Of a DNA stretch of 40,108 nucleotides, positions 1 through 35,005 are shown piece by piece. Under the pieces are notes generated by a model. It saw only the letters and a list, made by a program, of their open reading frames with translations. It made no database searches and had not been told where the DNA came from. Source of the stretch: an uncultured Bdellovibrionales bacterium (GTDB lineage: Bacteria > Patescibacteriota > Minisyncoccia > Moranbacterales > DUUL01); the NCBI GenBank assembly GCA_964393045.1, contig CAYMRZ010000002.1, positions 1-40,108 on the forward strand, in the 5' to 3' direction. The translations under genes were made by a program, and so were the position numbers. The first letter of the stretch is position 1, and each line of letters begins with the position of its first letter.

Positions 1-45
1 ACAAGGCATCCGTAGCGGAAGCTGTGGATGGATCACCTCCTTTCT
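1..45 (+). rRNA. rrs: 16S rRNA gene, extreme 3' end (partial; body lies upstream of the window)
   Basis: ACAAGGCATCCGTAGCGGAAGCTGTGGATGGATCACCTCCTTTCT aligns with the universally conserved helix-45/anti-Shine-Dalgarno tail (E. coli ACAAGGTAACCGTAGGGGAACCTGCGGTTGGATCACCTCCTTA). Confidence 0.9.
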
Positions 46-110
46 AGGGAGATTTTGACAAAACCGCAGAAATATTTTTTGCTAATAATCTACACTCTTT
101 ATAGTGGGGT

Positions 111-264
111 TAGAAAAATATTGGTTTTGTCCGCTGGTCGAGTCTGCCTCAACGGCAGGTTCAAAGCTAGGCTTAACTGAGCTAATCCGCCAACTGGCGG
201 AATTCAGTAGTCATACTTTTGTACAGGTATGCTTGGCTCTCGGGCTAATCGCAAAAAGTTGTGA
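111..264 (+). ncRNA. Unclassified structured RNA 'X', copy A, ~65 nt downstream of the 16S end
   Basis: The 24-nt 5' block TAGAAAAATATTGGTTTTGTCCGC is identical in all three copies. The 3' block GGGCTAATCGCAAAAAGTTGTGA is shared with copy B. Hairpins CTGCC/GGCAG (144-158), CCGCC/GGCGG (187-200) and CATAC/GTATG (212-231) are replaced in copies B and C by different sequences that remain complementary. Confidence 0.6.
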
Positions 265-458
265 TTTTTTAACAGATTATTATTAATTTAAGCTCAATTC
301 ACTGAATTGAAGCTAAAGAAAATATTAAATCAAATTAAAAGTGCGGGAATGTTTTTTAAACATTTCATTACAATACAGTAATCTGATGCTCCATTTTTAT
401 GGACATTAACATATTGCTATTATTGCTTTTAATAATAGCTATCAAAAAATAATTTTTT

Positions 459-485
459 AGAGTCGCTTTTTGCGGCTCTTTTTTG
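459..485 (+). terminator. Rho-independent terminator-like hairpin
   Basis: AGAGTCGC-TTTTT-GCGGCTCT followed by a T run. Confidence 0.5.
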
Positions 486-504
486 ACATATTTTTTAGTT
501 TTAT

Positions 505-565
505 AAATTAATATCTCCCTGGAAATAGTTCATTTCGAGGGCTGAAAATGAGGGAGATTTTTAGT
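505..565 (+). repeat. Element 'Y' copy A: conserved bulged hairpin plus T-run
   Basis: ATCTCCCTGGAAATAGTTCATTTCGAGGGCTGAAAATGAGGGAGATTTTTAG. The outer stem is ATCTCCC/GGGAGAT and the inner stem is TGGAAAT/ATTTC(G)A. A second, closely similar copy lies at 34189-34262. Confidence 0.55.
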
Positions 566-695
566 CCACCGCTCTGCTCTGTTTCACTGCCACAATTTGA
601 CGGTTTTTTGTATTCTTACAGAAGTGGATAACTCGTCTTGACTTCCTGTCTCACGAAGCTAATGTGTTGTTGCCTTAATAATTAAGCAACAATAT

Positions 696-881
696 ATGAA
701 CAAAAAAAAGTTCCAAGCCTGGGAAAAAGTCCGAAAAAGCGGACTCACCAATATGTACGACATCAATGAAATACGCTTTATAGCAGTGTCAAAATACGGA
801 CAAGAACTTACCAAGAAAGACTGTTTTGACATTATGCTTCACTATGATAAATGCAAACAAAAATATGCAAAGAAAAATTAG
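696..881 (+). CDS. Small hypothetical protein (61 aa) upstream of the integrase; from memory, the motif SG-TNM-D resembles small phage proteins
   Basis: ORF with an ATG start, overlapping the integrase 5' end. The family assignment is recollection only. Confidence 0.4.
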   Translation: MNKKKFQAWEKVRKSGLTNMYDINEIRFIAVSKYGQELTKKDCFDIMLHYDKCKQKYAKKN

Positions 882-1749
882 TAACACAGCCGAAGAATTT
901 CTAACCTGGCTTCAAGTGGAAAGAAGATTTGCTCAAAGTTCCATAATTAGTTACAGGTCAAGATTTAAATGTTTTATAAGAGACGTGGGTGACATTGAAA
1001 TCGAGAAATTTGGGATGGAACACATTTTCAAGCTCAAGCAGATTTTGTATGAAAGAAAAAATAGTGAAGTTTTTATAGGAGTATGTCTAGCTTGTATTAA
1101 AGGACTTCTGTTCTACTGCAAAAATCAGCTGTCTACTCCGCTCCGCTTCGACCCCAATCAAATAACGATTCCCAAGCGACCCAGAAGAGAGGTCGTTTTT
1201 TTAACCTCAGAAGAAATCAAAAGATTTAAAGAATCTATAAACATTAAACCAATTTATGGTCTGCGGTTCCGCACATTAGTAGAAGTTCTTTTAGCAACAG
1301 GAATGAGAATTTCTGAAGCACTTTCTCTCGACAAAACTTCAATAGACTTCGCAATCAAAGAAGCGAGAATTATTGGAAAGGGGAATAAAGAACGAGTTGT
1401 ATTCTTTACCGATGAAGCTCTGGGATGGATTCAGAGCTACACAAACGCTCGTACAGACGATAATAATGCCTTGTTTATAACTACTGGTAAAAAACCTAGA
1501 AGACTCAGAAATCAAGACTTAACTAGATATTTTAAACGCCAGAGAATATTGGCTGGAATTAACAAAAAAGTTACACCCCATTGCCTAAGACATTGTTTTG
1601 CTTCGCATCTTGCATTTAACAACTGTCCCTTTACTGAAATTAAAACATTAATGGGACATGAAAGACTAGATACAACCATTCGCTACTATGTAGGCCTAAC
1701 TGATAAAGAAAAAGCTAAACAGGCCCATCAACAGTATTTGAAATATTAG
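826..1749 (+). CDS. Tyrosine recombinase/integrase (XerC/D-like) no. 1; the likely true start is ATG 865 (MQRKISNTAEEF...)
   Basis: Catalytic signature visible: ATGMRISEAL (Arg), GKGNKERVV (Lys), HCLRHCFASHL (HxxR), GHERLDTTIRYY (His...Tyr). Confidence 0.85.
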   Translation: MTLCFTMINANKNMQRKISNTAEEFLTWLQVERRFAQSSIISYRSRFKCFIRDVGDIEIEKFGMEHIFKLKQILYERKNSEVFIGVCLACIKGLLFYCKNQLSTPLRFDPNQITIPKRPRREVVFLTSEEIKRFKESINIKPIYGLRFRTLVEVLLATGMRISEALSLDKTSIDFAIKEARIIGKGNKERVVFFTDEALGWIQSYTNARTDDNNALFITTGKKPRRLRNQDLTRYFKRQRILAGINKKVTPHCLRHCFASHLAFNNCPFTEIKTLMGHERLDTTIRYYVGLTDKEKAKQAHQQYLKY

Positions 1750-1955
1750 ATTCTATGGACTTGACAATGTTTTTTAGCTAGCATATAATATAGATAAAGA
1801 TTAATAATTTAACAACAGAATAAAAAGCTCAATACAATGAGCTTCCAAGATTGGAAGTCCCAATACAATGGGGCACAAGGCTTGAAAGAGTCTTCTTTGT
1901 GTCTTATTGTATCGGGATTTTTTTATAAGGCGCAGAGACATTCTGTGCCTTATTT

Positions 1956-2918
1956 ATGTTTTTATTTAATAAAGAAAGATATAGGTTTTCTGCTTGTTTT
2001 CAGCGATATATTGATAGAGCAATTGCTGAGCAAAGCTTGTCTTCTAATTCAATAAAGAAGTATCGAGAGGTATCAAAAAAATTGATTGAAATGATCGGGG
2101 ATATTGATATAAGAAAAATTGATGAAAATGCGATCATTAATCTTAAAAAAGTTTTAAACGAGCCAGTTTTTATTTTTGGTAAAGAGCGCACAAGGAGTCC
2201 AGCAAGACGTAATCATTGCCTAGTTGTTCTTAGGAATGTATTGAAATTTTTAAGAGAAGTGGAAAACTTGCATTCCATCTACGATTTTAATCGTATTAAA
2301 AAATTTAAAGAACGGAATAGACCAGTTGAATTTTTAACAGACGGTGAGGTAAAAATTCTTCTAAATTCGATAAAGGAAAACTGTATCACGAAACTGCGCT
2401 TAAAGACATTTATTATTTGTTTGTTAAGCACGGGAGCGAGGGTGTCAGAGATATTATCACTTAATAGAGAAGATGTTGATTGGGAGAGTGGAGTTGCCAA
2501 CACCAGAGGCAAAGGAGACAAGTCAAACCAGGTCATCTTTAACGAAGTTAGCAAAAAGTATCTGAAAAAATATTTAAGATTAAGAAAATATTTAAGATTA
2601 AGAAAAGATGATTGCCAAGCATTATTTGCAACAACCAATGGAACTCGATGGCAAATGAATTGTGCTGAGAGAGCAGTCAGAAATCAGGGCAAAAGAGCTG
2701 GTATCAGAAAAAGAGTTTATTGTCACTTGTTTAGAAAAACATCTGCATCAAAAATGTTTTTTTCGGGGGCTCCTCTTCCGGTGGTGTCAAAATTCCTTTC
2801 TCATTCTGATTTAGCAACTACGCAGAAATATTATCTAAGGGGAGCAAGCTTTGAAGAGGTCAAGCAATATCATAGCAAGTCAATGAATTTTAATAGTTTA
2901 GTTAAGAGTCACAAGTAA
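1956..2918 (+). CDS. Tyrosine recombinase/integrase no. 2 (tandem with no. 1)
   Basis: STGARVSEIL, RGKGDKSNQV, HLFRKTSASKM and SHSDLATTQKYY give the R-K-HxxR-H-Y set. The N-terminus MFLFNK resembles that of integrase no. 4 (MFLFKK). Confidence 0.8.
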   Translation: MFLFNKERYRFSACFQRYIDRAIAEQSLSSNSIKKYREVSKKLIEMIGDIDIRKIDENAIINLKKVLNEPVFIFGKERTRSPARRNHCLVVLRNVLKFLREVENLHSIYDFNRIKKFKERNRPVEFLTDGEVKILLNSIKENCITKLRLKTFIICLLSTGARVSEILSLNREDVDWESGVANTRGKGDKSNQVIFNEVSKKYLKKYLRLRKYLRLRKDDCQALFATTNGTRWQMNCAERAVRNQGKRAGIRKRVYCHLFRKTSASKMFFSGAPLPVVSKFLSHSDLATTQKYYLRGASFEEVKQYHSKSMNFNSLVKSHK

Positions 2919-3004
2919 AGATTATTTATATATAAAATTAACACACGTTTTCTGTTGCTCACATTTTTCGTGTGTGGTGTGAGCAGCAAAAAACCTAAAA
3001 AAAT

Positions 3005-3802
3005 ATGAGAAGTATGAGAAATCAGCCATTCTGTTGGCAAGAGAAAAAAATAAATAGACTAATACGGTCAAGATATGAAAAATCGCAAAAAACGAAGATG
3101 CTGCTTTTGTATGCCACAATAACCGAAATGGAGAGCGATTTTAATAATAGGGATATTAAGTATTATACAAAAACAATTGCTACTTATTCTGGATTGAGTA
3201 AAGATTTTATCCCAAAAGGATTAAAAAAATTGGAAAAATTAAAAATAATTAAAATAATTTCTGAAAGAGAGAAAGGAAAGTTTAAAGGAAAAAGAATTAA
3301 CTTTACCCCGAAGCTTGTCCTTGAAAGAGAAAGATATAAAAAATCCGTTTCTGGAAAATTCATTAACAGAAATAGCTATTCATCAGAAGATAGTAATTCT
3401 AAAGAAGATAGTAGAAGTAATCAATCTATAAAAAACAAAAAAGAAAATTTTTCAAATTCTAAAAATTCTGAAAAAGAAGACAAAAACCTTGACGAAGAAG
3501 TAGAAAATGTTTTGAATTTTTTTTCTTCAGAAACAAAGAAGCGGGAAGGGTTTTTTCCAAAAACTAATGAGGATGACCATGGTAAAGTGCAATATTTTCT
3601 TGAGGCTTCTAAAGACCCCAATATAAATTGTCGACCATATAACAAGGAAGACGCAAAGGAATTGATAACTTTCTTTTTGGACAATATAAGGAGCTTTGAA
3701 GATCAATACATAGCTATCTCAAACATATTTTGCAAAGAAGTTGTTGACAAGTGGAGAAGAGGGAATATTAAAGAACTCGAATGGAGGATGTCAAAGAATT
3801 AA
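3005..3802 (+). CDS. Hypothetical protein with a probable N-terminal winged-helix DNA-binding domain and a low-complexity acidic/Ser-rich linker; possible replication or regulatory protein
   Basis: The segment IATYSGLSKDFIPKGLKKLEKLKIIKII looks wHTH-like. I recognise no catalytic motif. Confidence 0.35.
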   Translation: MRSMRNQPFCWQEKKINRLIRSRYEKSQKTKMLLLYATITEMESDFNNRDIKYYTKTIATYSGLSKDFIPKGLKKLEKLKIIKIISEREKGKFKGKRINFTPKLVLERERYKKSVSGKFINRNSYSSEDSNSKEDSRSNQSIKNKKENFSNSKNSEKEDKNLDEEVENVLNFFSSETKKREGFFPKTNEDDHGKVQYFLEASKDPNINCRPYNKEDAKELITFFLDNIRSFEDQYIAISNIFCKEVVDKWRRGNIKELEWRMSKN

Positions 3803-4048
3803 AATAAAGCAATTCCTGCTTGAAATTTATTCAAGCAATGTCTTGCAGCTAGACATAAGGTTATTAGAAAAGAGTTAACGAGTTATGAGAAAGCTAAATA
3901 ACTAAAGAAATAATTATGCGAAACAAGATAAAAAGATTAAAAGAAGTTTTTTCTAAAAAAGAACTATCGGAGAATTACAATATTCAAAGAAAAAGCAAGA
4001 TTATAGGCTTAGTAGTATTAAATTTACCTTCAGAATTAAGCTAAAAAA

Positions 4049-5107
4049 ATGATAAAAAATCGAAAAATTCATGATGCTACTATTCCTTTTTTAGGAGGAA
4101 AAAGGAAAATGGCTGATAGAATAACCAAGGAGTTTAAAGGCGAAGTGTTACTGGATGTATTTTCAGGTGGAGGAAGTGTGTCCTTAAAAGGGAAACAATT
4201 AGGTATGAAAGTGATTGCTAATGATATAGCTTACAGGAGCAAAATAATTGGTGAAGCTTTGATAAAAAATTATACAGATAAAATAACAAAGGATGATGTG
4301 TATAGCCTTTTTATTCCTTCAGAAAATAACGGCTTTATTGAGAAGAATTTTGTGCCAAAAGTGTTTATACCGCAAGTGGCAAAAAATTTGGATAATTTCT
4401 TCGCCAATGCCAAAAAAAGAGAAAGTCCCAAAAAAGAATTATTGTTGCTTTTATTGATGAAATACATTTTTAGTCTCAGGCAATATGGAGGTTTTCAGGT
4501 TGGAAGGCAGGACAACGAGATGTTGCTAAAGGGCAAGGAAATAGAACTTCTGGAAGAGGCAAGCGAATCAAGAGGTAAAAAGGTGGTTGGCAATATTTCT
4601 CACCCCCTTCCTATTCTTCTAAAACTCAAGGACCAGATAAATTTTGGAGTATTTAACAATGGAAAAGAAAATGAGATTTATCAAATGGATTGTTTTGAGT
4701 TGTTGGAGATGTTTAAAAGCAATAAGGAGAAAATTGACACCATCTACTTTAACAGCCCGTATTTTAACTCAAGTGTCTACTCCAGTCACTATAAGGTGCT
4801 TGATGAAATTCTGGAGGGTGAAAGAGGATTAGAAATAAAAGATACGGCATTCAACGCTAAAGATGTGATGCAAAATTTTGAAAAACTTTTTGCACTTTCA
4901 GAGTTTATTCCTAAGTGGGTAATCTCAATGGGTTTCAATCCTGCTTCTAATGCTGGGATAAAAGGGGAGGAATTATTAAAGCTGATTCAAAAGTTCAGAG
5001 ATGCAGAGTTATATTTCATGAAACATAATTGGGCAATAAACAATATTGCTTCAAAGACAGGCAAGAGGCAAAGTGAAAACGTAGAGTATTTAATTGTAAC
5101 GAAATAA
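4049..5107 (+). CDS. DNA methyltransferase, Dam/D12-like
   Basis: N-terminal PFLGGKRK, SAM-binding motif LDVFSGGGSV and catalytic-like motif IYFNSPYF ((D/N/S)PPY variant). It sits next to a ParB-like gene, as in many phages. Confidence 0.55.
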   Translation: MIKNRKIHDATIPFLGGKRKMADRITKEFKGEVLLDVFSGGGSVSLKGKQLGMKVIANDIAYRSKIIGEALIKNYTDKITKDDVYSLFIPSENNGFIEKNFVPKVFIPQVAKNLDNFFANAKKRESPKKELLLLLLMKYIFSLRQYGGFQVGRQDNEMLLKGKEIELLEEASESRGKKVVGNISHPLPILLKLKDQINFGVFNNGKENEIYQMDCFELLEMFKSNKEKIDTIYFNSPYFNSSVYSSHYKVLDEILEGERGLEIKDTAFNAKDVMQNFEKLFALSEFIPKWVISMGFNPASNAGIKGEELLKLIQKFRDAELYFMKHNWAINNIASKTGKRQSENVEYLIVTK

Positions 5108-5109
5108 AA

Positions 5110-5745
5110 ATGAGCGAAAATAAAATATATAGCGATATTCAGATGGTGGAAACAAATAAGTTGAAACCGAATGATTATAACCCAAACATTATGACTGATG
5201 AACAGTTTGATTCATTGGTTCAGGATTTCAAGGAGAATGGGTTTGTAGGCCAGCCTATTATTGCAACGAAAGACAATATCATAATTGATGGCGAGAATCG
5301 TTGGAGGTGTGCAGGTTTCCTGAATTACAAAAAAGTTCCGGTGGTGTATTTTAATCCCAAAAACAAAAACCATCAGAAGATGCTAACTATTGCTTGGAAT
5401 GCCAAGAGAGGAGAATTTAGTCCGACAAAATTGGCTGGTATAATTCAAGAATTAAATCAAAAACATACTTTGGATGAATTAAGTGGGAAATTAGGGTTCA
5501 GTGTGGAACATTTAAAAGATACGATGTCGATGTCTGAATTAACGCCTGAGTTTGTAGAAAAATTAAAAAAAGAAGCGGAAGAACAAGAAAAGGAGATCCC
5601 GACAGTAATGAATTTTGCAGTTTCGAGAGAGCAGGAGAAACTAATTAATGAGGCGTTAGAAATGAGTATAGGCAAGAGTAAAGGAGAAAAATTAAGTTAT
5701 ATTTGTTCTGCATATTTAAAGCAAAAACCGAAAAATGGCAAATAA
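5110..5745 (+). CDS. ParB N-terminal (ParB/Srx nuclease-like) domain protein
   Basis: KLKPNDYNPN...GFVGQPIIATKDNIIIDGENRWRCAG matches the ParB-N signature, including the DGxxR box. Confidence 0.65.
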   Translation: MSENKIYSDIQMVETNKLKPNDYNPNIMTDEQFDSLVQDFKENGFVGQPIIATKDNIIIDGENRWRCAGFLNYKKVPVVYFNPKNKNHQKMLTIAWNAKRGEFSPTKLAGIIQELNQKHTLDELSGKLGFSVEHLKDTMSMSELTPEFVEKLKKEAEEQEKEIPTVMNFAVSREQEKLINEALEMSIGKSKGEKLSYICSAYLKQKPKNGK

Positions 5746-6316
5746 AAAATCCAAATCCAAAACCGCAGTCGGGAGATTAAGTGTTGAAGGGGTAAAGAGT
5801 GTCAAAAAGAATCTAAAGGTTCAAAGGAAGCACGGGGCGTTTGAATTTTTGAGAAAAAATGTAGCACCTGTGCCAAGTTGCAACCAGTGTATACTTGCAA
5901 GCGAATGTGAGTATTATCAAAAAGGCCAGAAGCAGTGTAAGGCAATATTGAAGCTTCAAAAAGAAATATATGATGAGATATGCCAACTTGAATACATTCA
6001 GCAAGCGGATAAATATTTAGTGGACCGCTTTGTGAAGAACATCTGCTTTTTGATTATTATTGAACGATGGGTTGCTAATGTGGGACCCTTTCAAGTCAAG
6101 GATAACGGAGTTGATGTCCAGCCAATATTAAAAGTCAAAACCAGTTATGAGCGGTTAGTTTTAAAGCAAGCCGATGCTATCGGAGTTGGACCGCAAGCCA
6201 GGGCTAGATTGAATTTGACCAACGTCCAATCTTTTTGTTTTGCAGAGGCCTTGCAAAAAGCAAAGCCAATAAATAATTATGGTAATTCAAATTTTAAAGA
6301 TGAGAAAAAGAACTGA
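5735..6316 (+). CDS. terS: Probable terminase small subunit (P27-like)
   Basis: Lies immediately upstream of the large terminase and overlaps it. The C-terminal ...QADAIGVGPQARARLNL resembles the P27-family 'GLTPasRsRL' tail. Confidence 0.5.
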   Translation: MANKKSKSKTAVGRLSVEGVKSVKKNLKVQRKHGAFEFLRKNVAPVPSCNQCILASECEYYQKGQKQCKAILKLQKEIYDEICQLEYIQQADKYLVDRFVKNICFLIIIERWVANVGPFQVKDNGVDVQPILKVKTSYERLVLKQADAIGVGPQARARLNLTNVQSFCFAEALQKAKPINNYGNSNFKDEKKN

Positions 6317-7847
6317 AATAACGAATAAAAAATTGCTGGAATATAGGAACGACATCTGTGTTTTTTTGGAAGAGCAGTATTATTTGGAATCAGGAAAATT
6401 GATTAAACTGGAACCCATTCAAAAGAAGATTCTAAGAGATATTTTCCAAACAAAAAACAAGAACGGCTTGCGTGCATATAATGATGCATTAATAGGAATG
6501 ATTAAAAAGTCAGGGAAAAGTTCTTTGGCAAGCGGAGTTGCATTGTATATGCTATTCTGTGATCCCATATTCGAGGAACCGAATGAAATCTATTCTATTG
6601 CTTCTGATAAGGATCAGGCAACGATTATTTGGCGGAAAACAAAGCGAGCTATCGAACGCAATCCCATATTACTGGGTAGCGTTAAAATTTATCGCGATTC
6701 TATCTTAGTGCCTTCAACGAGAAATATTTACAAAGTTTTAAGCTCAGATAGTTTTTCAGCGCATGGGCTAAATCCAACTTGTGTTATCGGTGATGAAATT
6801 TGGAATCAAAAAGACAGAAATCTGTTAGATGCATTGCAATTTTCTCCAACCAGGAAGCAGCCGCTAAGATTTATTGTGACTTATGCTGGAACCGACACTA
6901 CGTCTATTCTCTATGAGTTATATGACAAAGGATTGCGCGGGGAAAATCCTAAGATGTATTTTCATTGGTCGCACAAACCAGAAGTAAGCTGGATAACCAA
7001 GGATTTTTTAGAGGAGAAAAGAAAAGAACTTCCGCCAGCAGTTTATCAGAGATTTTGGGAAAATCGCTGGGCTGGAGGAGAAAATTCTTTTTTTACCAGA
7101 GAGGATGTTATGCAATGCCGGGATGAATTTTTAAAGCCGGTATTTCAGGGAAAAGAAGGAGTTCAATATTTTTACGGATGTGATTTAGGGCTTGTCAAAG
7201 ATCGAACAGTTTCTGTGATTTTGCACTACAGCAGAGAAGAAGGTGTGGTAATAGTAGACAGCGTTAAAACTTGGGAAGGAAGCAGGAACAATCCAGTAAA
7301 AATTGCCGACATTGAAGAGGATATGATCTTGGCCTCGCAAAATTTTCCAAGACTTCGTATTGTGGTCGATCCTTGGAATCTCAAAGGAACGGTCGAAAAA
7401 TTAAAACGGTATTGCCGAATAGAAGAATTTACTTTCACAAGCTCAAATGTGGAGAAAATAAGCCGTAATTTATACTATTTTGTCCATAATGGTCTAGTTA
7501 AATTTTTCCCTCATAAAGAATTAGAAAGAGAACTTCTTTCATTGAATTTAGAGCAGAAAAGTTATGGATATCGCTTCGATCATCCCAGTTCCCAGTTTTC
7601 AGATCATGCCATTGCGTTATCAATAGCTCTTATGCAAGTGGCGGTTATTAAAAAACCCACAGCGGGGATAATTTTTACGGGAAGTCCAAGTTTTGAAGAA
7701 TTCGAAAGGAAATGGGCAAGGAGTGAGAGGGCAGAGCCCAAAATAGTCAAAAAAGAGAGGAAAAAGGAAAAGGATGAAAAAGAGAACAAAAAAGACTTTT
7801 TTAAGCTTTCTGAATCAGATAAGTGGAGAAAATCAATGAATAGGTAA
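6279..7847 (+). CDS. terL: Phage terminase large subunit
   Basis: Walker A-like GMIKKSGKSSLASG and Walker B-like TCVIGDEIW, followed by a C-terminal nuclease-like half (FYGCDLGLVKDRTV...DHAIAL). Size is ~520 aa. An alternative start is ATG 6300. Confidence 0.7.
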   Translation: MVIQILKMRKRTEITNKKLLEYRNDICVFLEEQYYLESGKLIKLEPIQKKILRDIFQTKNKNGLRAYNDALIGMIKKSGKSSLASGVALYMLFCDPIFEEPNEIYSIASDKDQATIIWRKTKRAIERNPILLGSVKIYRDSILVPSTRNIYKVLSSDSFSAHGLNPTCVIGDEIWNQKDRNLLDALQFSPTRKQPLRFIVTYAGTDTTSILYELYDKGLRGENPKMYFHWSHKPEVSWITKDFLEEKRKELPPAVYQRFWENRWAGGENSFFTREDVMQCRDEFLKPVFQGKEGVQYFYGCDLGLVKDRTVSVILHYSREEGVVIVDSVKTWEGSRNNPVKIADIEEDMILASQNFPRLRIVVDPWNLKGTVEKLKRYCRIEEFTFTSSNVEKISRNLYYFVHNGLVKFFPHKELERELLSLNLEQKSYGYRFDHPSSQFSDHAIALSIALMQVAVIKKPTAGIIFTGSPSFEEFERKWARSERAEPKIVKKERKKEKDEKENKKDFFKLSESDKWRKSMNR

Positions 7848-7923
7848 ATTTTTAGTAAAGAGATAGCGAGATTTAATTCGCATAATGGAATGTTATGTAT
7901 CCATTTATTATTAAAATGTTAAT

Positions 7924-8301
7924 GTGAAAATTATTATTCAATTTACAAAGCCTGTATCGAAAAGCAGGCTGTTGTCGTGTCTTAAAGACGCAAAAAATAG
8001 AATTCCCGCCTTCAGAGAATATCTATTCGAAATTAAAAAGGGGAAATATTTATTTAAAGACAAAGAAGGGGAAATTGTGACCAGGTTTAATTTTGTGCTT
8101 GACGAAGAGAATCATCTGGCTTTTTTTGATGATCTTGAGGGTGAATTAAGGGATCAAGTCGAGAGGATGCTAATATTTGATTTCCCGGAAAGGGTGGGAG
8201 AAGAGTGTTTTGCGTGTAATAAGGAGGAAAATTGGAAGCTGTATTTTAGCATGTCGGAATGGTTTCTTATAGAAAGAGGGTATTTTTTTAAAATAGAGTG
8301 A
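7924..8301 (+). CDS. Hypothetical protein (125 aa, GTG start)
   Basis: ORF only; no recognisable motif. Confidence 0.35.
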   Translation: MKIIIQFTKPVSKSRLLSCLKDAKNRIPAFREYLFEIKKGKYLFKDKEGEIVTRFNFVLDEENHLAFFDDLEGELRDQVERMLIFDFPERVGEECFACNKEENWKLYFSMSEWFLIERGYFFKIE

Positions 8302-8428
8302 GACAGAGAAAAACTAATTGAAATGGAGTCATTTTATGTTTTTCAAGGAGCCAAAAAAGCTCTAAAATTAACTTGACTTTATTTCCTTGCAAGCTATTGT
8401 TGTGGTGTAAAGAGTTAAGAGCAAAACA

Positions 8429-9289
8429 ATGAAATATCTCAATAGCTATATCAAATACCTAAAAATTGATAAGAATTTAAGCCATAAAACGATTGAGGCA
8501 TACAAGAGAGACATTGGGGAGTTCCATGAAAGCTTAGGAGGGATAAATTCAGTTGGAAACATAAAAAGGGCTCACATTCGTGAGTTCTTTTGCTATCTAG
8601 ATAATAAAAAGAATTGCCCAATAACCAGAAGGAGGAAATTAACTTCTCTTAGAAATTATTTCAAATACCTCAAAGATGAAGAAGTGATCAAGAAAAATCC
8701 GACAGATTCGATTTCAATGCCGAGAGTTTCCCAGATAGAGCCCAGCTGTCTTACTGAAAAGGAAATAAGGAGAATTTTGCATGAAGTGAAAGATGATAAA
8801 ACACGCTTTAATGAAAGAAATTATTTAATGATAAAGATATTAGTTGAGACAGGGATAAGAATCAACGAATTAACAAATTTAAAGAATGAAGACGCTGATA
8901 TTGAAAATATGCTGCTTAGAGTTAAAAGAAAAGGGGGTGATAAGCAAGAAATTCCAGTAAATAAAGAGTTGAATTTATTGATAGCCGGGCATATAAAAAG
9001 CAAAAAACCCGCAGAGCCAATGTTTATCAGTAGTTACGGTAGCGCGATAACTAATCGAAGAGTCGGCTTAATGTTTCAAAACTATGTGAGAAAAGCCGGG
9101 ATTAAAAAGCCTAATGTTTCAGCTCATACTGCCAGACACAGCTTCTGTTCAAGGCTCCTAGATAAGGGGGCCAGCCTTAAATCAATCCAGATATTAGCCG
9201 GCCATAGAAGTATTTCGACTACCGAAAGATATCTGCATATAGCGAAGGAAAAACTGAGACAAGAGGCAGCGTTAGCTGGGATCAATTGA
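8429..9289 (+). CDS. Tyrosine recombinase XerC/D-like no. 3
   Basis: ETGIRINELTNL, KRKGGDKQEIPV, HTARHSFCSRLL and GHRSISTTERYLH give the full R-K-HxxR-H-Y set. Confidence 0.85.
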   Translation: MKYLNSYIKYLKIDKNLSHKTIEAYKRDIGEFHESLGGINSVGNIKRAHIREFFCYLDNKKNCPITRRRKLTSLRNYFKYLKDEEVIKKNPTDSISMPRVSQIEPSCLTEKEIRRILHEVKDDKTRFNERNYLMIKILVETGIRINELTNLKNEDADIENMLLRVKRKGGDKQEIPVNKELNLLIAGHIKSKKPAEPMFISSYGSAITNRRVGLMFQNYVRKAGIKKPNVSAHTARHSFCSRLLDKGASLKSIQILAGHRSISTTERYLHIAKEKLRQEAALAGIN

Positions 9290-9338
9290 AAAATATTGAC
9301 CAAAGTTCTTTATAGGTTTAATATATAAGCAAAAGATA

Positions 9339-9430
9339 CCAGCTGTGACATTACCAAGTTAAGCACTTGGCCTAGTTATGCACAAAAAGGAGCAACTCTC
9401 CGAAAAGTGCGTAACTAGTGTCACAGCTGG
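9339..9430 (+). ncRNA. Candidate structured RNA or recombination site: 92-nt three-way junction
   Basis: Perfect 12-bp closing stem CCAGCTGTGACA/TGTCACAGCTGG (9339-9350/9419-9430). It encloses hairpin CCAAGT/ACTTGG and stem CTAGTTATGCAC/GTGCGTAACTAG, which is capped by GGAG/CTCC. Confidence 0.4.
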
Positions 9431-9492
9431 GACAATCTTAGTAGGGGGTTGTTCCTTTATGTATCTTGAGTTAATAATAATTATTTTAAAAG

Positions 9493-10533
9493 ATGAATGA
9501 TGTAAATAAAAATTCGGAGGGTAAAAAAGCTAAAAAGAAGTGGTATAAAAAAATCAAGTACTGGGTTTTAATTATACTTGGACTATTTATTGGAATTTGT
9601 GTGTTGGCAGGTATTGCATCTCGAGGTATGCCAATTTTCAAAGATGTTCCCGATGAGACTAATCAGATAGAATTAAAACTGAATGGTTCTGGAGTGGATT
9701 CAAATGCTAATGTAAAAATATATCTAAATGGCAATGCTGTTTCAGAAGTAAATGCAGATGAGAACGGAAAATTTATTTTTTCAGTTTCACTATCAGAAGG
9801 AGAAAATATTTTATATGCAGAGGCAATGCATAATGGTAAGACGAAAAAAAGTGTAGAGGAAAAAATCGTTTACATAAACCAAGAGAAGATAGATGCTCAG
9901 AAAAAGGCTGAAGAAGAAGAAAGAGCAAGAGCAGAAGAGGCTCAAAACAAAATAGATGAAGAAGCTCAGCGAAAAGCTGAAGAGGAACAAAAAATAAAAA
10001 AACAGGAAGCTGAACAAAAAGCAGATGAAGAAGCTCAACGAAAGGCGGAGGAAGAGGCTAATACTCAGAGTCAGCAAGCGGAGGTTTTAGAAGAAGCAGA
10101 GGAGGTAGAGCCTGTTGTATTAAATAACTTAGGCGTTTCTTATGAGCAAATGATGAACTATTTATCTAATTTTTTTACGATGGATAAATCAACTCCCGTT
10201 GACGGAAAAGATAGATATATGGGGCAAACTTCTAATGGACTAGCAATGCTGGAAATAATTGGTGATAAAGATGATATCTATCAATCTTCGTTAATGCTAA
10301 GCATTCCATCTGATAGTCCAGATACAATCATTGAAAATTCAGCAATATTATTACGTTTTTTAAAGAATATTGTTCCTGAATGGGAAGGTAGTTCTGAATG
10401 GGCAGTTAATTCAATGGAGGAAATCACTGGTTCATTAAGTGATAAAAAGGAGACTATTCAGGGTAACAAGAAGATTGAAATGTCTATTATGAGAGATTTT
10501 GGGATGATGATTGTGACAGTGAAACATAAGTAA
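9493..10533 (+). CDS. Membrane-anchored protein with an Ig-like segment, a charged KAEEE coiled-coil repeat and a C-terminal globular domain
   Basis: N-terminal TM WVLIILGLFIGICVLAGIA. The repeated EEAQRKAEEE is encoded by a near-duplicate DNA segment (approximately 9955-9990 and 10024-10058). Confidence 0.5.
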   Translation: MNDVNKNSEGKKAKKKWYKKIKYWVLIILGLFIGICVLAGIASRGMPIFKDVPDETNQIELKLNGSGVDSNANVKIYLNGNAVSEVNADENGKFIFSVSLSEGENILYAEAMHNGKTKKSVEEKIVYINQEKIDAQKKAEEEERARAEEAQNKIDEEAQRKAEEEQKIKKQEAEQKADEEAQRKAEEEANTQSQQAEVLEEAEEVEPVVLNNLGVSYEQMMNYLSNFFTMDKSTPVDGKDRYMGQTSNGLAMLEIIGDKDDIYQSSLMLSIPSDSPDTIIENSAILLRFLKNIVPEWEGSSEWAVNSMEEITGSLSDKKETIQGNKKIEMSIMRDFGMMIVTVKHK

Positions 10534-11287: not shown

Positions 11288-13420
11288 ATGAATCTAACAG
11301 ATAATGAAAAAAGAGACATTATAAAATATCTTGAATCTAATAAACCACTTCCAGATAAGTATCGTTTTATGCTTTTTGAGGATAAGCGAGAGGTTGAATT
11401 AATTTGGAATGGTAAGACCAATGAGGTCACTAAAGTCGTTTTGCCTTTTCAAGTGATTGAACAAGTTGACGAACCAAGAGCAGAAGAAGCTGTAAAAATG
11501 CAGGCTTCTCTTTTTGATTTCGACCAATCAGGAAGACAAATTGGCGGTTGGACAAATAAATTGATTTGGGGAGATAATAAGCTGATTCTTTCCAGTCTTA
11601 AAAACGGACCGCTTCGAGAGGAAATTGAGAAACAGGGCGGAATAAAATTGATTTATATTGACCCCCCATTTGATGTTGGGGCCGATTTTTCGATGAATGT
11701 CGAGATCGGTGATGAACAATTTACTAAAAAGCCGAATGTTTTAGAAGAATTGGCATATCGTGACACCTGGGGCAAGGGAGCAGATAGTTTTATCGCAATG
11801 ATTTATGAAAGGCTTTCTTTGATGAAGGATTTACTGGCGGATGACGGGAGTATTTATGTGCATTGTGATTGGAGGGTGAACAGTTATATGCGATTAGTTA
11901 TGGACGAAATTTTTGGAAAGGATAATTTTAGACGAGAAATAATTTGGAACAGAGGTAACCCATCTGGAGGAAAAGCTTCTGCAAACAATTATATTCATGC
12001 TCATGACTCAATAATCTATTACAGTAAAAGCGATAACTTAATTTTCAATAAACAATACGAAGAATATTCTGACGAATATATAGAGCAAAGATTTACACAC
12101 GATGATAATGACGGAAAAGGTCGGTATAGATTGCAAGGATCAGGAGATAATCTAAGAAAACAATATTTGTCAGAATCAAAAGGTAAGGCTTTAGCAAGTG
12201 TTTGGAGTATGCCAGATATAAACGTAATGGCTAAAGAGAGATTAGATTACCCCACACAGAAGCCTGAAAAATTTATTGAACGCATAATCAAAGCTTCGTC
12301 AAACGAGGGCGATATCGTTGCTGATTTCTTTTGTGGTTCTGGAACAACATTGTCTGTTGCAGAAAAACTTGGCAGAAAATGGATTGGAAGCGATCTTGGA
12401 AAATTTGCTGTTCACACTAGCAGAAAAAGAATGATTACAGTTCAGCGGGAAATGAAAAAAGAAAAAAAAGATTATCGGGCATTTGAAATTCTTAATCTTG
12501 GGAAATACGAACGCCAGCACTATATTGGCGTGAATATGAATTTGAGAGAAGATGAAAAACAAAAACAACTGGAAAAGAAAGAAAAGGATTTTGTAAAATT
12601 GATTCTCAAAGCATATAAGGCAGAAAAAATTGAAAACTTCAGAACATTCAGCGGAAAAAAAGCTGGCAGACTGGTAGCAATCGGACCGATAAATTTACCA
12701 GTTTCAAGATTGTTTATTGAAGAAATAATCAAAGAGTGCAAAGAAAAGCAAATCACCAAAGTGGACGTCTTGGCGTTTGAATATGAAATGGGACTTTTCC
12801 CAAAGGTTCAGGAAGATGCCAAAGCCCAAGGCATTGATTTGGCACTCAAGCATATTCCGAGAGAAGTTTTTGATAAGCGAGCGATTGAAAAAAATCAAAT
12901 TGCTTTTCATGATGTTTCATATATTGAAGTCAAGCCTCGTATTAAAAAAGGAACCAAAAGAAAAAAGTCCTCTGTTTCTGTAGAATTGACTGATTTTGCT
13001 GTTTATTATAATCAAGATATTGTAGATAATGTGATTGCTGATCTTAGAAATGGTTCTAATAAGATTGTGGTTGAAAAAGGAAATATTATAAAAATATCTA
13101 AAGACAAAGAAGGGATTGTGACTAAGGATGTATTAACAAAAAAATGGACTGATTGGATTGATTATTGGGCAGTTGATTTTAATTTTGAAAGTAAGAAAGA
13201 AATTGTAAAAATAAAAAATGATAAAGGAAAAATCAAAGAAGCGTGGACGGGAGATTATATTTTTGAAAATGAGTGGCAATCATTTCGAACAAAAAAAGAC
13301 CGTAAGTTAGAATTGAAGAGTATTTCCCGTGAGTGTAGCTCAGGTAGACGGAAGATAGCGGTCAAAGTTGTAGATATTTTCGGTAATGATACGATGAAAG
13401 TAATTGAGATAAATGTATGA
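11288..13420 (+). CDS. mod: Type III restriction-modification methyltransferase (Mod), beta-class N6A/N4C MTase
   Basis: Motif [13 protein letters not shown] precedes motif [25 protein letters not shown]. Size is 710 aa. It shares an operon with a Res-type helicase-nuclease. Confidence 0.8.
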
Positions 13421-15030: not shown

Positions 15031-15031
15031 T

Positions 15032-24718: not shown

Positions 24719-24746
24719 TTCCTCCCACGAATCACCTCCTTTCTAG
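24719..24746 (+). repeat. 28-nt island-end motif TTCCTCCCACGAATCACCTCCTTTCTAG; its last 16 nt duplicate the 16S 3' tail
   Basis: Identical to 38329-38356. ATCACCTCCTTTCTAG is identical to 32-47 at the genuine 16S end. Confidence 0.8.
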
Positions 24747-24808
24747 GGAGTTTTTGACAAAACCGAGAAAATGTTTTTCATTATAGCTTACACTCTTTAT
24801 AGTGGAGC

Positions 24809-24977
24809 TAGAAAAATATTGGTTTTGTCCGCCCGCCTGCAACGCTTTGCGTAGCAATGCGGGCAAGGCTGGTCGAGTCCCGCTAAGCGGGAGAACAGCT
24901 AGCTTAGCAGTGCGAATACTGTTAGTGGATTTTGTACAATCCACGGGCTCATACGGGCTAATCGCAAAAAGTTGTGA
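24809..24977 (+). ncRNA. Structured RNA 'X', copy B
   Basis: Same 5' and 3' blocks as copy A. It has an extra hairpin GCCCGC...GCGGGC (absent in A, present in C) and stems TCCCGC/GCGGGA (24878-24892) and GTGGATT/AATCCAC (24925-24944). The preceding spacer (24747-24808) is homologous to 48-110, including TTGACA and CTCTTTATAGTGG. Confidence 0.6.
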
Positions 24978-24991
24978 TAAACTTAAATAAT

Positions 24992-25154: not shown

Positions 25155-25241
25155 ATGAAAACAAGCAATCAAAAACGAACCATCCAAAATACAAAAGAAG
25201 AATTTCTCACTTGGCTTCAAGTGGAAAGAAGATTCGCCTGA
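25155..25241 (+). pseudogene. Relic of an integrase no. 1-type gene (first 28 codons only)
   Basis: MKTSNQKRTIQNTKEEFLTWLQVERRFA* matches ...NTAEEFLTWLQVERRFAQ of the 826-1749 product. The upstream GAAGCTAATGTGT (25108-25120) matches 655-667. Confidence 0.7.
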
Positions 25242-25375: not shown

Positions 25376-26413
25376 ATGAAGTCTAATAGCACAAACGAAG
25401 AAGTCTATTGGAGAGATGCTTTGAATTTTAGTAAAAAAGAAGCTGGGGTAGCGGAAAGGTTTAATGACTGGGTTCCTGAAAAGATAATCGATTGTCATGC
25501 CCATTGTGGCTTAGCTGAACACGTAATGAGGCTTGAAGAAATGATTTTTAATCATATGAGCTCAACGTTTCTGAGATTTGGACTCAAACAATCAGCGTTA
25601 ATTCAGAAGCTCTTTTATCCCGGCAAAATTGTTCGTTATTTACGGTTTCCATTTCCGTTTGCAGGAGTTGATGTGAAGAAAGCAAACGCTTATCTCTTGG
25701 ATGGTGCTCGAGAGAAAGACAGGGTTGCAATTTGTGGAATGCCCGATGATGTTGATTATACGGTTGGTCTGCTTGAAGGAGAAAATATTTCGGCTTTGAA
25801 AATTTATCACTTCTATTTTATTCCTCCTGCAAAAAGAATCTATGAATTCTTCAAATCGGAGATACTGGAGGTAACTCAGAGGGAAGGCGTGCCAATTATC
25901 CTGCATCTGCCTAAGCCGATTACCCACTGCCTAAGTGATCTCCGACAACTATTGAAAGACTTTCCTAGGCAAATAGTTGTTTTGGCACATCTTGGTGTCC
26001 CCATTTTTTCGGATGATGAATTAGCAGCTGTTTATGGGGAGATTGCGAAAAATGAAAATGTTTTCATGGACACGGCTATGATTTCTTCAGTTGGCGTTGT
26101 AAAAAAGGCTTTAAACAAACTTGGTGTCAGTCGAATCATGTTTGGGTCTGACGAGCCATTAAATATGGTAAGGGCAATTGTTTATGAAAATCCAAGCTTG
26201 GGGCAACGGTTAGCTTCGTCATACCCATATCATTGGGTCAATCCAAGAGAGTTTGAAGAATTTGGTCATCTGGCTAAGGGGGCAATGCATTTTCACTGGC
26301 AAGCGATCGAGGCTCTTCGAGAGGGGGTAGAATCGCTATCTTTCGCTGAGACAGCTCAGGCCATTGGCAAAATCTTTTTTGGCACGGCCAAAGAAGTCTT
26401 TAGTTTTGACTAA
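25376..26413 (+). CDS. Amidohydrolase-2 family metal-dependent hydrolase (TIM barrel)
   Basis: IIDCHAHCG (HxH), HLPKP, LAHLG and MFGSDEP motifs. Strong RBS AAGGGGG. Confidence 0.6.
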   Translation: MKSNSTNEEVYWRDALNFSKKEAGVAERFNDWVPEKIIDCHAHCGLAEHVMRLEEMIFNHMSSTFLRFGLKQSALIQKLFYPGKIVRYLRFPFPFAGVDVKKANAYLLDGAREKDRVAICGMPDDVDYTVGLLEGENISALKIYHFYFIPPAKRIYEFFKSEILEVTQREGVPIILHLPKPITHCLSDLRQLLKDFPRQIVVLAHLGVPIFSDDELAAVYGEIAKNENVFMDTAMISSVGVVKKALNKLGVSRIMFGSDEPLNMVRAIVYENPSLGQRLASSYPYHWVNPREFEEFGHLAKGAMHFHWQAIEALREGVESLSFAETAQAIGKIFFGTAKEVFSFD

Positions 26414-27617: not shown

Positions 27618-27629
27618 CAAAAGCGACAA

Positions 27630-30042: not shown

Positions 30043-30140
30043 GATGTCTTGAACGCCCAAAATGGCAAATATCGCCTAAAACAGACTATTTTGTTGTAAT
30101 TTGGCGCTAACAAGTACATTCAAAATATACGGAGGCAATA

Positions 30141-33817: not shown

Positions 33818-34188
33818 AATCAAGGCGAATCATGAAGATTTAGAAAACATAAGCGTCTCGATGTAATTTTATCGGGCGCTTATATTCTTTTAATGTCAAC
33901 TGCAAAGTGAGACTTTAAATGTTAAAAAATGTTACGGCGGTTGTATTTCTGGTTCAATTGCTTCAACAGGAAATCCTGATGACGTATTGTGCTTTGTTGA
34001 TGTATAAACAACATCACAGAAAGCTCTCCATTGCGATATTATTTGCAACGGAGAGCTTTTTTACTTATACTTTAATAAAACTGATAATCAAAACATTTAT
34101 ATGAAAAAAATTAGTTGTAAAAATAATTTTGGAAAGATTGTGAATTCTTATAACAAGGCACCCGCATAGGGTGTCTTTGTATTGTCTA

Positions 34189-34262
34189 AAATAAATATCT
34201 CCCTGGAAATGACTCATTTCCAGGGTTGAAAGCGAGGGAGATTTTTAGTTCACTTGCCTCAC
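34189..34262 (+). repeat. Element 'Y' copy B
   Basis: ATCTCCCTGGAAATGACTCATTTCCAGGGTTGAAAGCGAGGGAGATTTTTAG. Here the inner stem is perfect (CCCTGGAAAT/ATTTCCAGGG). As with copy A, a separate terminator hairpin precedes it (GGCACCC/GGGTGTC). Confidence 0.55.
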
Positions 34263-34901: not shown

Positions 34902-35005
34902 TTCTTCCCATGAAGCACCTTCTTAGCGGAGAGTAAATAGGCCTTAAACCTTTTTTCTTATATAAATCGATATAATCTAATATAGGTAATATAGAACAAA
35001 GATTG

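What the first reader, a model, noticed from the sequence alone, without database searches (positions are those of the whole stretch)
111..264. Three diverged paralogues of an unclassified ~155-180 nt structured RNA with compensatory stem substitutions
Copies lie at 111-264, 24809-24977 and 38359-38540. All share an identical 24-nt 5' block (TAGAAAAATATTGGTTTTGTCCGC) and conserved single-stranded patches: CTAGGCTTAAC in A and C, and GGGCTAATCGCAAAAAGTTGTGA in A and B.

At least three hairpin positions change sequence while keeping complementarity:
- CTGCC/GGCAG (A), TCCCGC/GCGGGA (B), GATCCCGCC/GGCGGGATC (C).
- CCGCC/GGCGG (A), CAGT/ACTG (B), TCCCGAG/CTCGGGA (C).
- CATAC/GTATG (A), GTGGATT/AATCCAC (B), CGTGT/ACACG (C).

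One further hairpin (GCCCGC...GCGGGC) is present in B and C but cleanly absent in A, like a variable arm. This pattern points to RNA rather than protein. The 60-62 aa ORFs called over copies A and B do not keep a common frame across these indels. I cannot match it to tRNA, tmRNA, SRP, RNase P, 6S, 5S or the 23S 5' end by eye.
Basis: seen in the sequence. Interest (0 to 1): 0.75.

Follow-up and report, generated by a model that had tools for sequence, protein, structure and literature searches.

The report
Duplicated 16S rRNA trailer at island boundaries
The three "unknown RNAs" are copies of the folded spacer that follows the 16S ribosomal RNA gene in a Moranbacteria genome: one working copy and displaced copies, probably left by integrase-carrying gene islands that inserted at the end of the 16S gene.

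Summary
Three diverged copies exist, and their stems keep pairing through compensatory changes: 96% of cells pair against 36-43% in slid controls, and 23 of 40 pairs changed on both sides.

They are not a free-standing sRNA family. The window starts inside a 16S rRNA gene, and copy A is its 3' trailer. The repeat starts earlier than reported, at the last 16 nt of 16S (32-47, 24731-24746, 38341-38356). This is the classical leader-trailer processing helix.

B and C are orphan trailers. Both are preceded by the same 12 nt (TTCCTCCCACGA), a junction that recurs in another genome. B is followed by a truncated integrase gene. C has lost two helices. A fourth remnant lies at 34133-34177.

The best reading is serial integrase-mediated insertion at the 16S 3' end, each element bringing a replacement trailer. 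That step is inferred, at about 0.6.

No Rfam family matches the trailer.

The parts
1..46 (+). 3' end of the 16S rRNA gene, including the anti-Shine-Dalgarno CCUCC. The contig begins inside the gene.
   Evidence: Rfam RF00177 model positions 1491-1533, E = 1.3e-9. 95-100% identical to the 16S ends of L047, L049 and L045.
47..265 (+). Copy A, the working 16S 3' trailer. P0 47-51/237-241; P1 57-66/122-131; P2 133-136/164-167; H2 143-148/154-159; Px 176-180/204-208 with an extra arm in its loop; H3 212-217/226-231 (loop UUUGUACA); leader-pairing 3' block 242-265.
   Evidence: Homologous trailers follow 16S in L047, L049 and L052-L061.
459..479 (+). Terminator-like hairpin plus T run downstream of trailer A.
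492..569 (+). Element E1. A dyad site (TCCCTGGAA-N9-TTCGAGGGC) lying between the trailer and the integrase genes. Possibly a recombinase or regulator site.
   Evidence: (D4). Also present upstream of the integrase in L047, L045 and L073.
826..1749 (+). Tyrosine recombinase, the first gene of the conserved integrase module that follows the 16S trailer. A second integrase lies at 1956-2918.
   Evidence: Pfam PF00589, E = 2.9e-36. 63-86% identical homologues occur in many Moranbacteria, always downstream of 16S where 16S is visible.
24719..24746 (+). Junction J. A foreign 12-mer TTCCTCCCACGA fused to the last 16 nt of 16S. Dyad arms TCCCACGAA / TTCTAGGGA flank the anti-SD spacer. Candidate recombination core (attR).
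   Evidence: (D1). The identical 27-mer occurs in L062-L065, L067, L070 and L071.
24746..24978 (+). Copy B, an orphan trailer with all helices intact plus a junction arm at 24831-24867.
25155..25241 (+). Truncated integrase pseudogene. It encodes 28 codons (...EEFLTWLQVERRFA) and then a stop. Homologous to the N-terminus of the integrase at 826.
   Evidence: D8 (81% over 59 nt).
34133..34177 (+). Fourth trailer remnant. It keeps the last 12 nt of the 3' block (AAAGATTGTGAA) and the trailer terminator hairpin.
   Evidence: Alignment with the trailer ends of L047 and L045.
34176..34253 (+). Element E2, the second copy of the dyad element (81% identical to E1).
   Evidence: D4.
34902..34929 (+). 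Degenerate junction-like site (20/28 identical to J) immediately after the NUDIX stop codon. Tentative.
   Evidence: D1.
38329..38356 (+). Second exact copy of junction J.
   Evidence: D1.
38357..38545 (+). Copy C, an orphan trailer that lacks the 65-nt segment carrying the 5' strands of P0 and P1. It keeps the junction arm 38381-38416, P2/H2, Px with its arm, H3 and a diverged 3' block 38522-38545.

Best explanation
The element is the 3' external spacer (trailer) of the 16S rRNA precursor of a Candidatus Moranbacteria (CPR) genome.

How the working copy operates. In copy A the transcript runs from the mature 16S 3' end straight into a domain of about 195 nt. That domain has a closing helix P0, a long helix P1, P2 enclosing hairpin H2, hairpin Px and hairpin H3. 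A 22-25-nt block follows the domain and base-pairs with a complementary block 105-210 nt upstream of the 16S 5' end. This long-range leader-trailer helix brings both ends of 16S together. By analogy with other bacteria, it is the substrate for endonucleolytic release (RNase III type).

How the extra copies arose. Copies B and C, and the remnant at 34133-34177, are displaced trailers. Integrase-bearing elements recombined at a core site whose spacer is the anti-SD end of 16S (…TCACCTCCT…). Each element brought its own copy of the last 16 nt of 16S plus a complete trailer, followed by its integrase, so 16S stayed intact. The previous trailer was pushed downstream behind the element's right end (…TTCCTCCCACGA). 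Repeated events gave an array, and older units decayed.

What is shown and what is inferred.
- Shown: contiguity with 16S; the structure with covariation; leader complementarity in relatives; the exact junctions; the integrase remnant.
- Inferred: cleavage by RNase III; recombination by these integrases; the order of events.
For: Identity as the 16S trailer:
- Window 1-43 is the 16S 3' end.
- Homologous trailers lie directly after 16S in L047/L049 and L052-L061, and in reduced form in L045 and L076.
- The 3' block is complementary to a leader block upstream of 16S: 22/22 in L047, 20/22 in L052, 19/20 in L045 and 24/25 in L076. Compensatory changes occur, for example C-G to U-A and GGACUAACC/GGUUAGUCC to GGGAACC/GGUUCCC.

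Structure:
- 96.2% of cells pair, 23 of 40 pairs changed on both sides, 0 of 500 shuffles reach this, and slid controls give 36-43%.
- The 24-nt block pairs with the start of the omitted segment: helix P1 is 98% paired, with 6 of 10 pairs compensatory.
- Folding z-scores are -3.8 to -6.9.

Duplication by insertion:
- All copies start at the same base inside 16S.
- B and C share the identical foreign 12-mer.
- The same 27-nt junction precedes an orphan trailer in a different genome.
- J is a dyad with the same arms as element E, which sits beside the integrase genes.
- An integrase gene follows A, and a truncated copy of the same gene follows B.
- In five lineages the integrase module lies 0.5-3.5 kb downstream of 16S, while the genes upstream of 16S differ: S9, FtsX, or DnaJ plus a tRNA.
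- The A-B block holds four integrases, terminase genes and defence genes at 31-35% GC.
- FtsX is next to 16S in L045 and next to a GerM-like gene in L072. In the window, 38 kb separates 16S from the GerM-like gene.
Against: - The leader of this genome is not in the window, because the contig starts in 16S. Pairing of A's 3' block with its own leader is therefore not shown.
- No empty site or excised circle was found.
- In L073 an integrase module abuts a GerM-like gene with no distal orphan trailer. L048 likewise shows none within 6 kb.
- The B-C block contains a tyrS that passes the equivalog cut-off. Its GC is 37-43%, which resembles host DNA. It is therefore not obviously a mobile element, and it has no intact integrase.
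- Identity among copies is mosaic: B = C over 56 nt, while A = B in the 3' block. This needs later recombination or gene conversion.
- C's 3' block resembles that of L047 rather than A's. Whether C is this host's original trailer is therefore uncertain.
- The structural alignment was hand-fitted, and it covers only four genomes.
Confidence: 0.7

Rival explanations
1. This is a free-standing family of trans-acting structured sRNA genes of about 155-180 nt, with three functional paralogues, each with its own promoter and terminator.
For: - Stems covary.
- Terminator-like hairpins follow A and B.
- A weak promoter-like match lies inside B's upstream segment (TTTTCA-17-TATAGT).
- Orphan B and the orphan in L062 keep every helix.
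- There is no Rfam match.
Against: - Copy A is contiguous with 16S.
- Every homologue found lies either directly after 16S or behind the 16S-derived junction.
- The 3' block pairs with the 16S leader, with covariation.
- The domain starts at the 16S end, not at the 24-nt block.
- C has lost P0 and P1.
- Promoter-like matches are no more frequent than in shuffles.
Confidence: 0.08
2. The copies are 16S trailers, but they were multiplied by something other than site-specific integration. Candidates are unequal or illegitimate recombination, rearrangement of a former second rRNA locus, or chimeric assembly of strains in a metagenome bin.
For: - Identity among the copies is mosaic.
- The B-C block contains tyrS and has host-like GC.
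- Some relatives show an integrase module with no distal orphan trailer.
- No empty site or circular form was recovered.
Against: - All orphans are cut at exactly the same base of 16S and joined to the same 12-mer, in two window copies and in an unrelated genome.
- The junction is a dyad that shares its arms with a site next to the integrase genes.
- An integrase remnant follows B.
- Copies differing by 20-40% cannot be an assembly collapse artefact.
Confidence: 0.17
3. The orphan trailers have been co-opted. For example, they could be RNA pieces carrying two anti-SD-like CCUCC motifs that act as decoys or regulators for the islands. Alternatively they could act as terminator or insulator modules between islands.
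For: - B and the L062 orphan keep all helices.
- Each orphan carries UUCCUCCCACGAAUCACCUCCUUUCUA at its 5' side.
- All genes are co-directional, so read-through transcription is plausible.
- The islands encode defence genes.
Against: - There is no evidence of expression.
- C and the fourth remnant are visibly decaying.
- Conservation of the helices is explained by recent descent from working trailers.
- No leader partner lies nearby.
Confidence: 0.05

Closest known systems
Leader-trailer (spacer) processing helix flanking 16S in bacterial rRNA operons. The RNase III substrate of E. coli and B. subtilis is textbook knowledge, cited here from memory. Archaeal processing stems are described in PMC7038931 and PMC10351888 (abstracts).
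   Same: - A sequence just downstream of 16S pairs over 20-25 bp with a sequence upstream of 16S, looping out the whole rRNA.
- The helix covaries between genomes.
- It is co-linear with the rRNA and followed by a terminator.
   Different: - 16S is unlinked from 23S here.
- The paired block lies about 190 nt beyond the 16S end.
- A conserved multi-helix domain (P0, P1, P2/H2, Px, H3, with optional arms) separates it from 16S. This domain is absent from Rfam.
- The nuclease is unknown.
Integrative elements that target the 3' part of small RNA genes and carry a replacement copy. Examples are tRNA and tmRNA islands (general knowledge) and phage phiEf11, whose attB lies in ffs (PMC12540744, abstract).
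   Same: - A tyrosine integrase sits next to the RNA gene.
- The direct repeat starts inside the gene and runs through its 3' end.
- Tandem arrays form, with older, decayed units further away.
   Different: - The target is the anti-SD end of the 16S rRNA gene.
- The replaced segment extends about 220 nt beyond the gene, through a structured trailer that must still pair with the host leader.
- I found no published precedent in the searched library. Absence there is not proof.
Multi-recombinase islands such as GInts (PMC5385486, abstract only).
   Same: Several tyrosine recombinase genes are clustered at one end of an island.
   Different: Not tested here. The gene set (two integrases with a 236-398 aa protein between them in relatives, adjacent in the window, then D12 methylase, ParB, terminase and a third integrase) and the target site both differ.

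Membership tests
Pre-16S rRNA 3' trailer with leader-trailer processing helix | Lies immediately downstream of, and on the same strand as, the mature 16S 3' end. | tested here: met
   Copy A starts at window 47, directly after the 16S end. The same holds in L047, L052, L045 and L076.
Pre-16S rRNA 3' trailer with leader-trailer processing helix | Extended complementarity to a block upstream of the 16S 5' end. | tested here: met
   Met in four related genomes: 22/22, 20/22, 19/20 and 24/25 bp. It cannot be tested in the window itself, because the contig starts inside 16S.
Pre-16S rRNA 3' trailer with leader-trailer processing helix | Compensatory changes keep the long-range helix intact. | tested here: met
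   L047 C-G against L052 U-A at the same position. L045 has GGGAACC/GGUUCCC where the others have GGACUAACC/GGUUAGUCC. Only four lineages were compared.
Pre-16S rRNA 3' trailer with leader-trailer processing helix | Co-transcribed with 16S and cleaved by a processing endonuclease. | not testable with these tools
   No strong terminator lies between the 16S end and the trailer. The first convincing one is at 459-479. There are no expression data.
att duplication by an integrative element targeting an RNA gene | Direct repeats that begin inside the target gene flank a block carrying an integrase. | tested here: met
   ATCACCTCCTTTCTAG plus a trailer occurs at 32, 24731 and 38341. Integrases lie at 826, 1956, 8429 and 22917, with an integrase remnant at 25155.
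att duplication by an integrative element targeting an RNA gene | The same element-side junction recurs in independent genomes. | tested here: met
   The 27-mer TTCCTCCCACGAATCACCTCCTTTCTA occurs in 7 loci of the L062 group, in front of an orphan trailer. All seven probably represent one population.
att duplication by an integrative element targeting an RNA gene | An empty target site in a relative, or an excised circular form carrying attP. | tested here: inconclusive
   No viral or circular contig carries J. L072 has FtsX next to a GerM-like gene but no 16S there. L073 lacks a distal orphan trailer.
Any Rfam 15 family | A match at or above the gathering score. | tested here: not met
   No hit at the gathering threshold in the window. 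E-value scans of A, B and C give only sub-threshold hairpin matches. Trailers in L047, L052, L062 and L045 are also unmatched.
Free-standing sRNA gene | Its own promoter and terminator, and occurrence independent of 16S. | tested here: not met
   Every homologue found is 16S-linked or lies behind the 16S-derived junction. Promoter-like matches are not enriched.

The most novel reading that the evidence does not exclude
Moranbacteria (CPR) host a family of integrase-bearing elements that use the anti-Shine-Dalgarno end of the single 16S rRNA gene as their attachment site. Each element carries a replacement 16S 3' end plus a full structured trailer, which must stay compatible with the host's 16S leader. 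Successive insertions build arrays of defence and metabolic islands behind the rRNA gene, with orphan trailers as their scars.
Probability: 0.5. Interest if true: 0.65.

Novelty: new variant of a known kind. Interest (0 to 1): 0.42.

Why it matters
It removes a false lead: this is not a new class of sRNA. It also documents two things of moderate interest.

1. A lineage-specific, covariation-supported structured domain lies in the 16S trailer of a CPR group whose ribosome biogenesis is poorly known. The domain is absent from Rfam and could be added as a cis element.
2. The end of a 16S rRNA gene apparently serves as an integration hotspot, with the rRNA's 3' end and processing signal supplied by the incoming element. 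If confirmed, this extends the "integrate into an RNA gene and repair it" strategy from tRNA, tmRNA and ffs to ribosomal RNA.

If the insertion model holds, orphan trailers could also serve as markers for delimiting islands in CPR metagenome bins.

Tried and rejected
Searches that led nowhere:
- Exact-pattern scans with the 5' block gave only chance or coding matches: viral contigs (none), GTDB genomes (36 hits) and metagenome contigs (8 hits), checked. Later work showed that this block varies between genomes.
- A 27/28-nt match in Thermincola (L034/L039) has no similarity beyond the block. I judged it chance.
- BLAST of copy B against the phage and plasmid collections found nothing.
- Exact look-ups of four window proteins failed because of start-codon differences.
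- The search for related loci in viral contigs with the integrase gave one 23% hit, which was irrelevant.
- Viral scans for J, for the 16S end plus GGGAG, and for the 3' block gave nothing from Moranbacteria.
- Contig L075, from a close relative, starts 9 nt before the GerM-like gene, so it says nothing about the empty site.
- Literature searches found no report of integration into the 16S 3' end and nothing on CPR 16S trailers.

Ideas considered and dropped:
- The first RNAalifold model paired the 5' block with the 3' block. I dropped it once the true partners were found: segment S1 for the 5' block and the leader for the 3' block.
- A small GGCUU/GAGCC hairpin was rejected in favour of Px, which covaries.
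- A "TOTE conflict system" link was considered because of the AEP-TOTE domain. TOTE is defined by TPR, OB, TBP and an effector (PMC12458937), and none of these were found.
- Small-protein coding was rejected: the ORFs of 50-60 aa share no frame.

Full report
**1.

The three copies are at the stated coordinates. They align with 71% mean column identity. The 24-nt block is identical in all three. B and C are identical over 56 nt, and A and B share a 25-nt 3' block. Each copy folds much better than dinucleotide shuffles, with z = -3.8, -6.9 and -5.3. No tRNA or tmRNA is present. No Rfam family reaches its gathering score, and E-value scans of the three copies give only sub-threshold hairpin matches.

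**2.

The window begins inside a 16S rRNA gene. Positions 1-43 match positions 1491-1533 of the bacterial SSU model (E = 1.3e-9). Copy A follows without a break.

The repeated unit starts earlier than the 24-nt block, at ATCACCTCCTTTCTAG. These are the last 16 nt of 16S, and they recur exactly at 24731 and 38341 (0.05 matches expected). A and B also share a 65-nt segment (S1) between that point and the 24-nt block. C lacks it.

**3. Source organism and relatives**

The window is a complete 40,108-bp NCBI contig. The integrase at 826-1749 has more than 100 homologue clusters at 63-86% identity, and several are named Moranbacteria. Contigs encoding these homologues supplied related loci.

A profile of the RNA found homologues in two settings:
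- Directly after 16S in L047/L049 and in L052-L061.
- Between protein genes in L062-L071.

L045 and L076 keep only the 3' block after their 16S.

**4. The 3' block is the trailer strand of the 16S processing helix**

The same profile hit the opposite strand upstream of 16S. The table gives the sequences.

| Locus | Leader block | Trailer block | Paired |
|---|---|---|---|
| L047 | CACAATTTTTTGCGGTTAGTCC | GGACTAACCGCAAAAGATTGTG | 22/22 |
| L052 | ...GCGATTAGTCC | GGACTAATCGC... | 20/22 |
| L045 | ...GTGGTTCCC | GGGAACCGC... | 19/20 |
| L076 | AATCACAATTTTTTGTGGTTAGTCC | GGACTAACCGCAAAAAGTTATGATT | 24/25 |

The C-G to U-A change between L047 and L052, and the indel-compensated L045 version, are covariation. 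The leader block lies 105-210 nt before the 16S 5' end. The trailer block lies 110-190 nt after the 3' end. This is the classical leader-trailer helix that loops out 16S for endonucleolytic release (established knowledge for bacteria; the nuclease here is inferred).

**5. The rest is one folded domain that starts at the 16S end**

When S1 is included, the minimum-energy folds of all full-length trailers agree:
- **P0:** GGGAG, right after 16S, pairs with CUCUC just before the 3' block.
- **P1:** Examples are GACAAAACCG/UGGUUUUGUC in A and B, GAUAGAAUCG/CGGUUCUAUC in L052, GGUAACAUUC/GAAUGUUAUC in L062, and GGCAAUAGC/GUUAUUGUC in L047.
- **P2:** GCUG/CAGC or GACG/CGUC, enclosing hairpin H2.
- **Px:** ACAGA/UCUGU, which is ACUGA/UCAGU in A.
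- **H3:** a hairpin with the conserved loop UUUGUACA.

I built a hand-curated structural alignment of A, B, C, L047, L052 and L062. Each row reproduces the true sequence, gaps are written as N, and MAFFT left it unchanged. The pair counter gave these results:
- 96.2% of 209 cells paired, against 36-43% for partners slid by 1-3 columns.
- 23 of 40 pairs carried changes on both sides.
- 0 of 500 shuffles reached any of the five measures.
- P1 (6 of 10 pairs), H2 (8 of 9) and H3 (5 of 7) carry most of the compensatory changes. P0 does not covary.

Caveats: the alignment was fitted to the structure, and it represents four genomes.

Three points about the variable parts:
- The arm present only in B and C is a separate hairpin at the P1/P2 junction.
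- B's CAGT/ACTG is Px itself.

Copy C lacks S1, and so lacks the 5' strands of P0 and P1. It cannot form the complete domain.

The 24-nt block is not conserved between genomes. Its identity within the window reflects the shared P1 partner in A and B and the recent common origin of the B and C segments.

**6. Why there are several copies**

The evidence comes from the junction, its neighbours, further remnants, synteny and the block contents.

*The junction*
- B and C are each preceded by the same foreign 12-mer, TTCCTCCCACGA, fused to the 16S-derived 16-mer.
- The identical 27-nt junction (J) precedes the orphan trailer in the L062 group, behind unrelated genes.
- J is a dyad: TCCCACGAA - TCACCTCCT - TTCTAGGGA, with 7 of 9 arm positions symmetric.
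- Its arms match those of element E, TCCCTGGAA-N9-TTCCAGGG. E lies between the trailer and the integrase genes in the window (twice) and in L047, L045 and L073.
- This is the layout of a tyrosine-recombinase core site whose spacer is the anti-SD end of 16S.

*What follows each copy*
- Trailer A is followed by two integrase genes.
- Trailer B is followed by a 28-codon remnant of the same integrase. It reads ...EEFLTWLQVERRFA and then stops, where the intact gene reads ...EEFLTWLQVERRFAQSS.

*Further remnants*
- A fourth trailer remnant at 34133-34177 keeps the end of the 3' block and the terminator, and it is followed by E2.
- A degenerate J-like site follows the NUDIX gene at 34902. This one is tentative.

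*Synteny*
- In five lineages the integrase module lies 0.5-3.5 kb downstream of 16S. The genes upstream of 16S differ: S9 in L047 and L076, FtsX in L045, and DnaJ plus a tRNA in L052.
- FtsX is adjacent to 16S in L045 and adjacent to a GerM-like gene in L072. In the window, 38 kb separates 16S from the GerM-like gene.

*Block contents*
- The A-B block has 31-35% GC. It carries four integrases, D12 methylase, ParB, terminase genes, a type III restriction system with an OLD-family nuclease, and PDC-S06.
- The last 3.4 kb before C carries SoFic and a PrimPol-helicase.

The most economical reading is serial integration at the 16S 3' end. Each element supplies a new 16S end plus trailer and pushes the previous one downstream. 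The newest unit is A, and older ones are progressively decayed.

**7. What does not fit**

- No empty site or circular form was found.
- L073 and L048 show integrase modules with no distal orphan trailer.
- The 25.4-33.6 kb segment has 37-43% GC and includes a tyrS that passes its equivalog cut-off. It may be host-like DNA or unusual cargo.
- Identity among the copies is mosaic, which needs later recombination.
- C's 3' block resembles L047's, not A's.
- The window lacks its own 16S leader.

I put the trailer identity at about 0.9 and the serial-integration origin at about 0.6.

**8. Comparison with what is known**

The RNA works like the leader-spacer processing helices of bacterial rRNA operons. 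It meets the testable membership criteria: position, leader complementarity and covariation. The interposed multi-helix domain is lineage-specific and is not in Rfam.

The duplication works like tRNA, tmRNA and ffs-targeting integrative elements (for ffs, PMC12540744). It differs in having 16S as the target and a much longer repaired segment. I found no precedent in the searched literature.

**9. Verdict**

This is a real structured RNA, but it is the 16S trailer and its displaced copies, not a new sRNA family. Interest is moderate. It rests on the CPR-specific trailer domain and on the probable use of the 16S end as an integration site.

Noticed in passing
window 492-569 and 34176-34253 (dyad cores 516-542 and 34200-34226): A 78-nt element ('E') occurs twice at 81% identity. 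It has a near-perfect dyad, TCCCTGGAA-N9-TTCCAGGG, and lies between the trailer terminator and the 62-aa ORF plus integrase. It is also present in L047, L045 and L073. Its arms match those of junction J, so it may be a recombinase core or operator site.
   Followed up: partly
window 826-9289; L045, L046, L062-L067, L076: A conserved module of about 9 kb (integrase, second integrase, D12 methylase, ParB-like protein, small and large terminase, third XerC/D-like integrase) lies downstream of 16S in several Moranbacteria lineages. Cargo around it varies. It looks like a phage-satellite-like resident element.
   Followed up: partly
L062 13881-14006: A LOOT RNA (Rfam RF03000, 95.8 bits against a gathering score of 46.4) sits just after the third integrase of the module. 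The equivalent window region (9200-9600) has no match.
   Followed up: yes
window 11288-17695: In a type III restriction-modification system, an OLD-family ATPase-nuclease gene (13417-15030) is inserted between the Mod and Res genes.
   Followed up: no
window 19465-22062, 35064-36125 and 36122-38269: Candidate defence genes: PDC-S06 (SMC-like, E = 1e-121), SoFic, and a PrimPol (Pfam AEP-TOTE) fused to a superfamily-2 helicase. The PrimPol-helicase is the last gene before junction J of copy C.
   Followed up: partly
window 25376-33613: A higher-GC block (37-43%) holds an amidohydrolase, an Fe-ADH-like protein, a PaaK-like CoA ligase, an aldehyde dehydrogenase, a weak TrpRS-like paralogue and a bona fide tyrS. 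This is an odd combination to find between two orphan trailers.
   Followed up: partly
window 38-51 and 24736-24750: The anti-SD CUCCU can pair with the GGGAG that opens the trailer (CUCCUUUCUAGGGAG). This is an alternative to helix P0. The same CTAGGGAG follows 16S in unrelated bacteria (L077, L078), so it is probably a general feature.
   Followed up: partly
window 34902-34929 and 34953-35054: A degenerate junction-like 28-mer (20/28 identical to J) lies right after the NUDIX stop codon. It is followed by two 44-nt direct repeats (86% identical) upstream of the SoFic gene.
   Followed up: no
L047 1711-4540: The 16S gene of this relative carries an insertion of about 1 kb encoding a LAGLIDADG endonuclease. 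Because of it, the Rfam SSU hit ends early, at 3593.
   Followed up: no
window 9891-10028: Imperfect tandem repeats (24-45-nt register) lie inside ORF 9493-10533 and encode a Glu/Lys/Ala-rich stretch.
   Followed up: no
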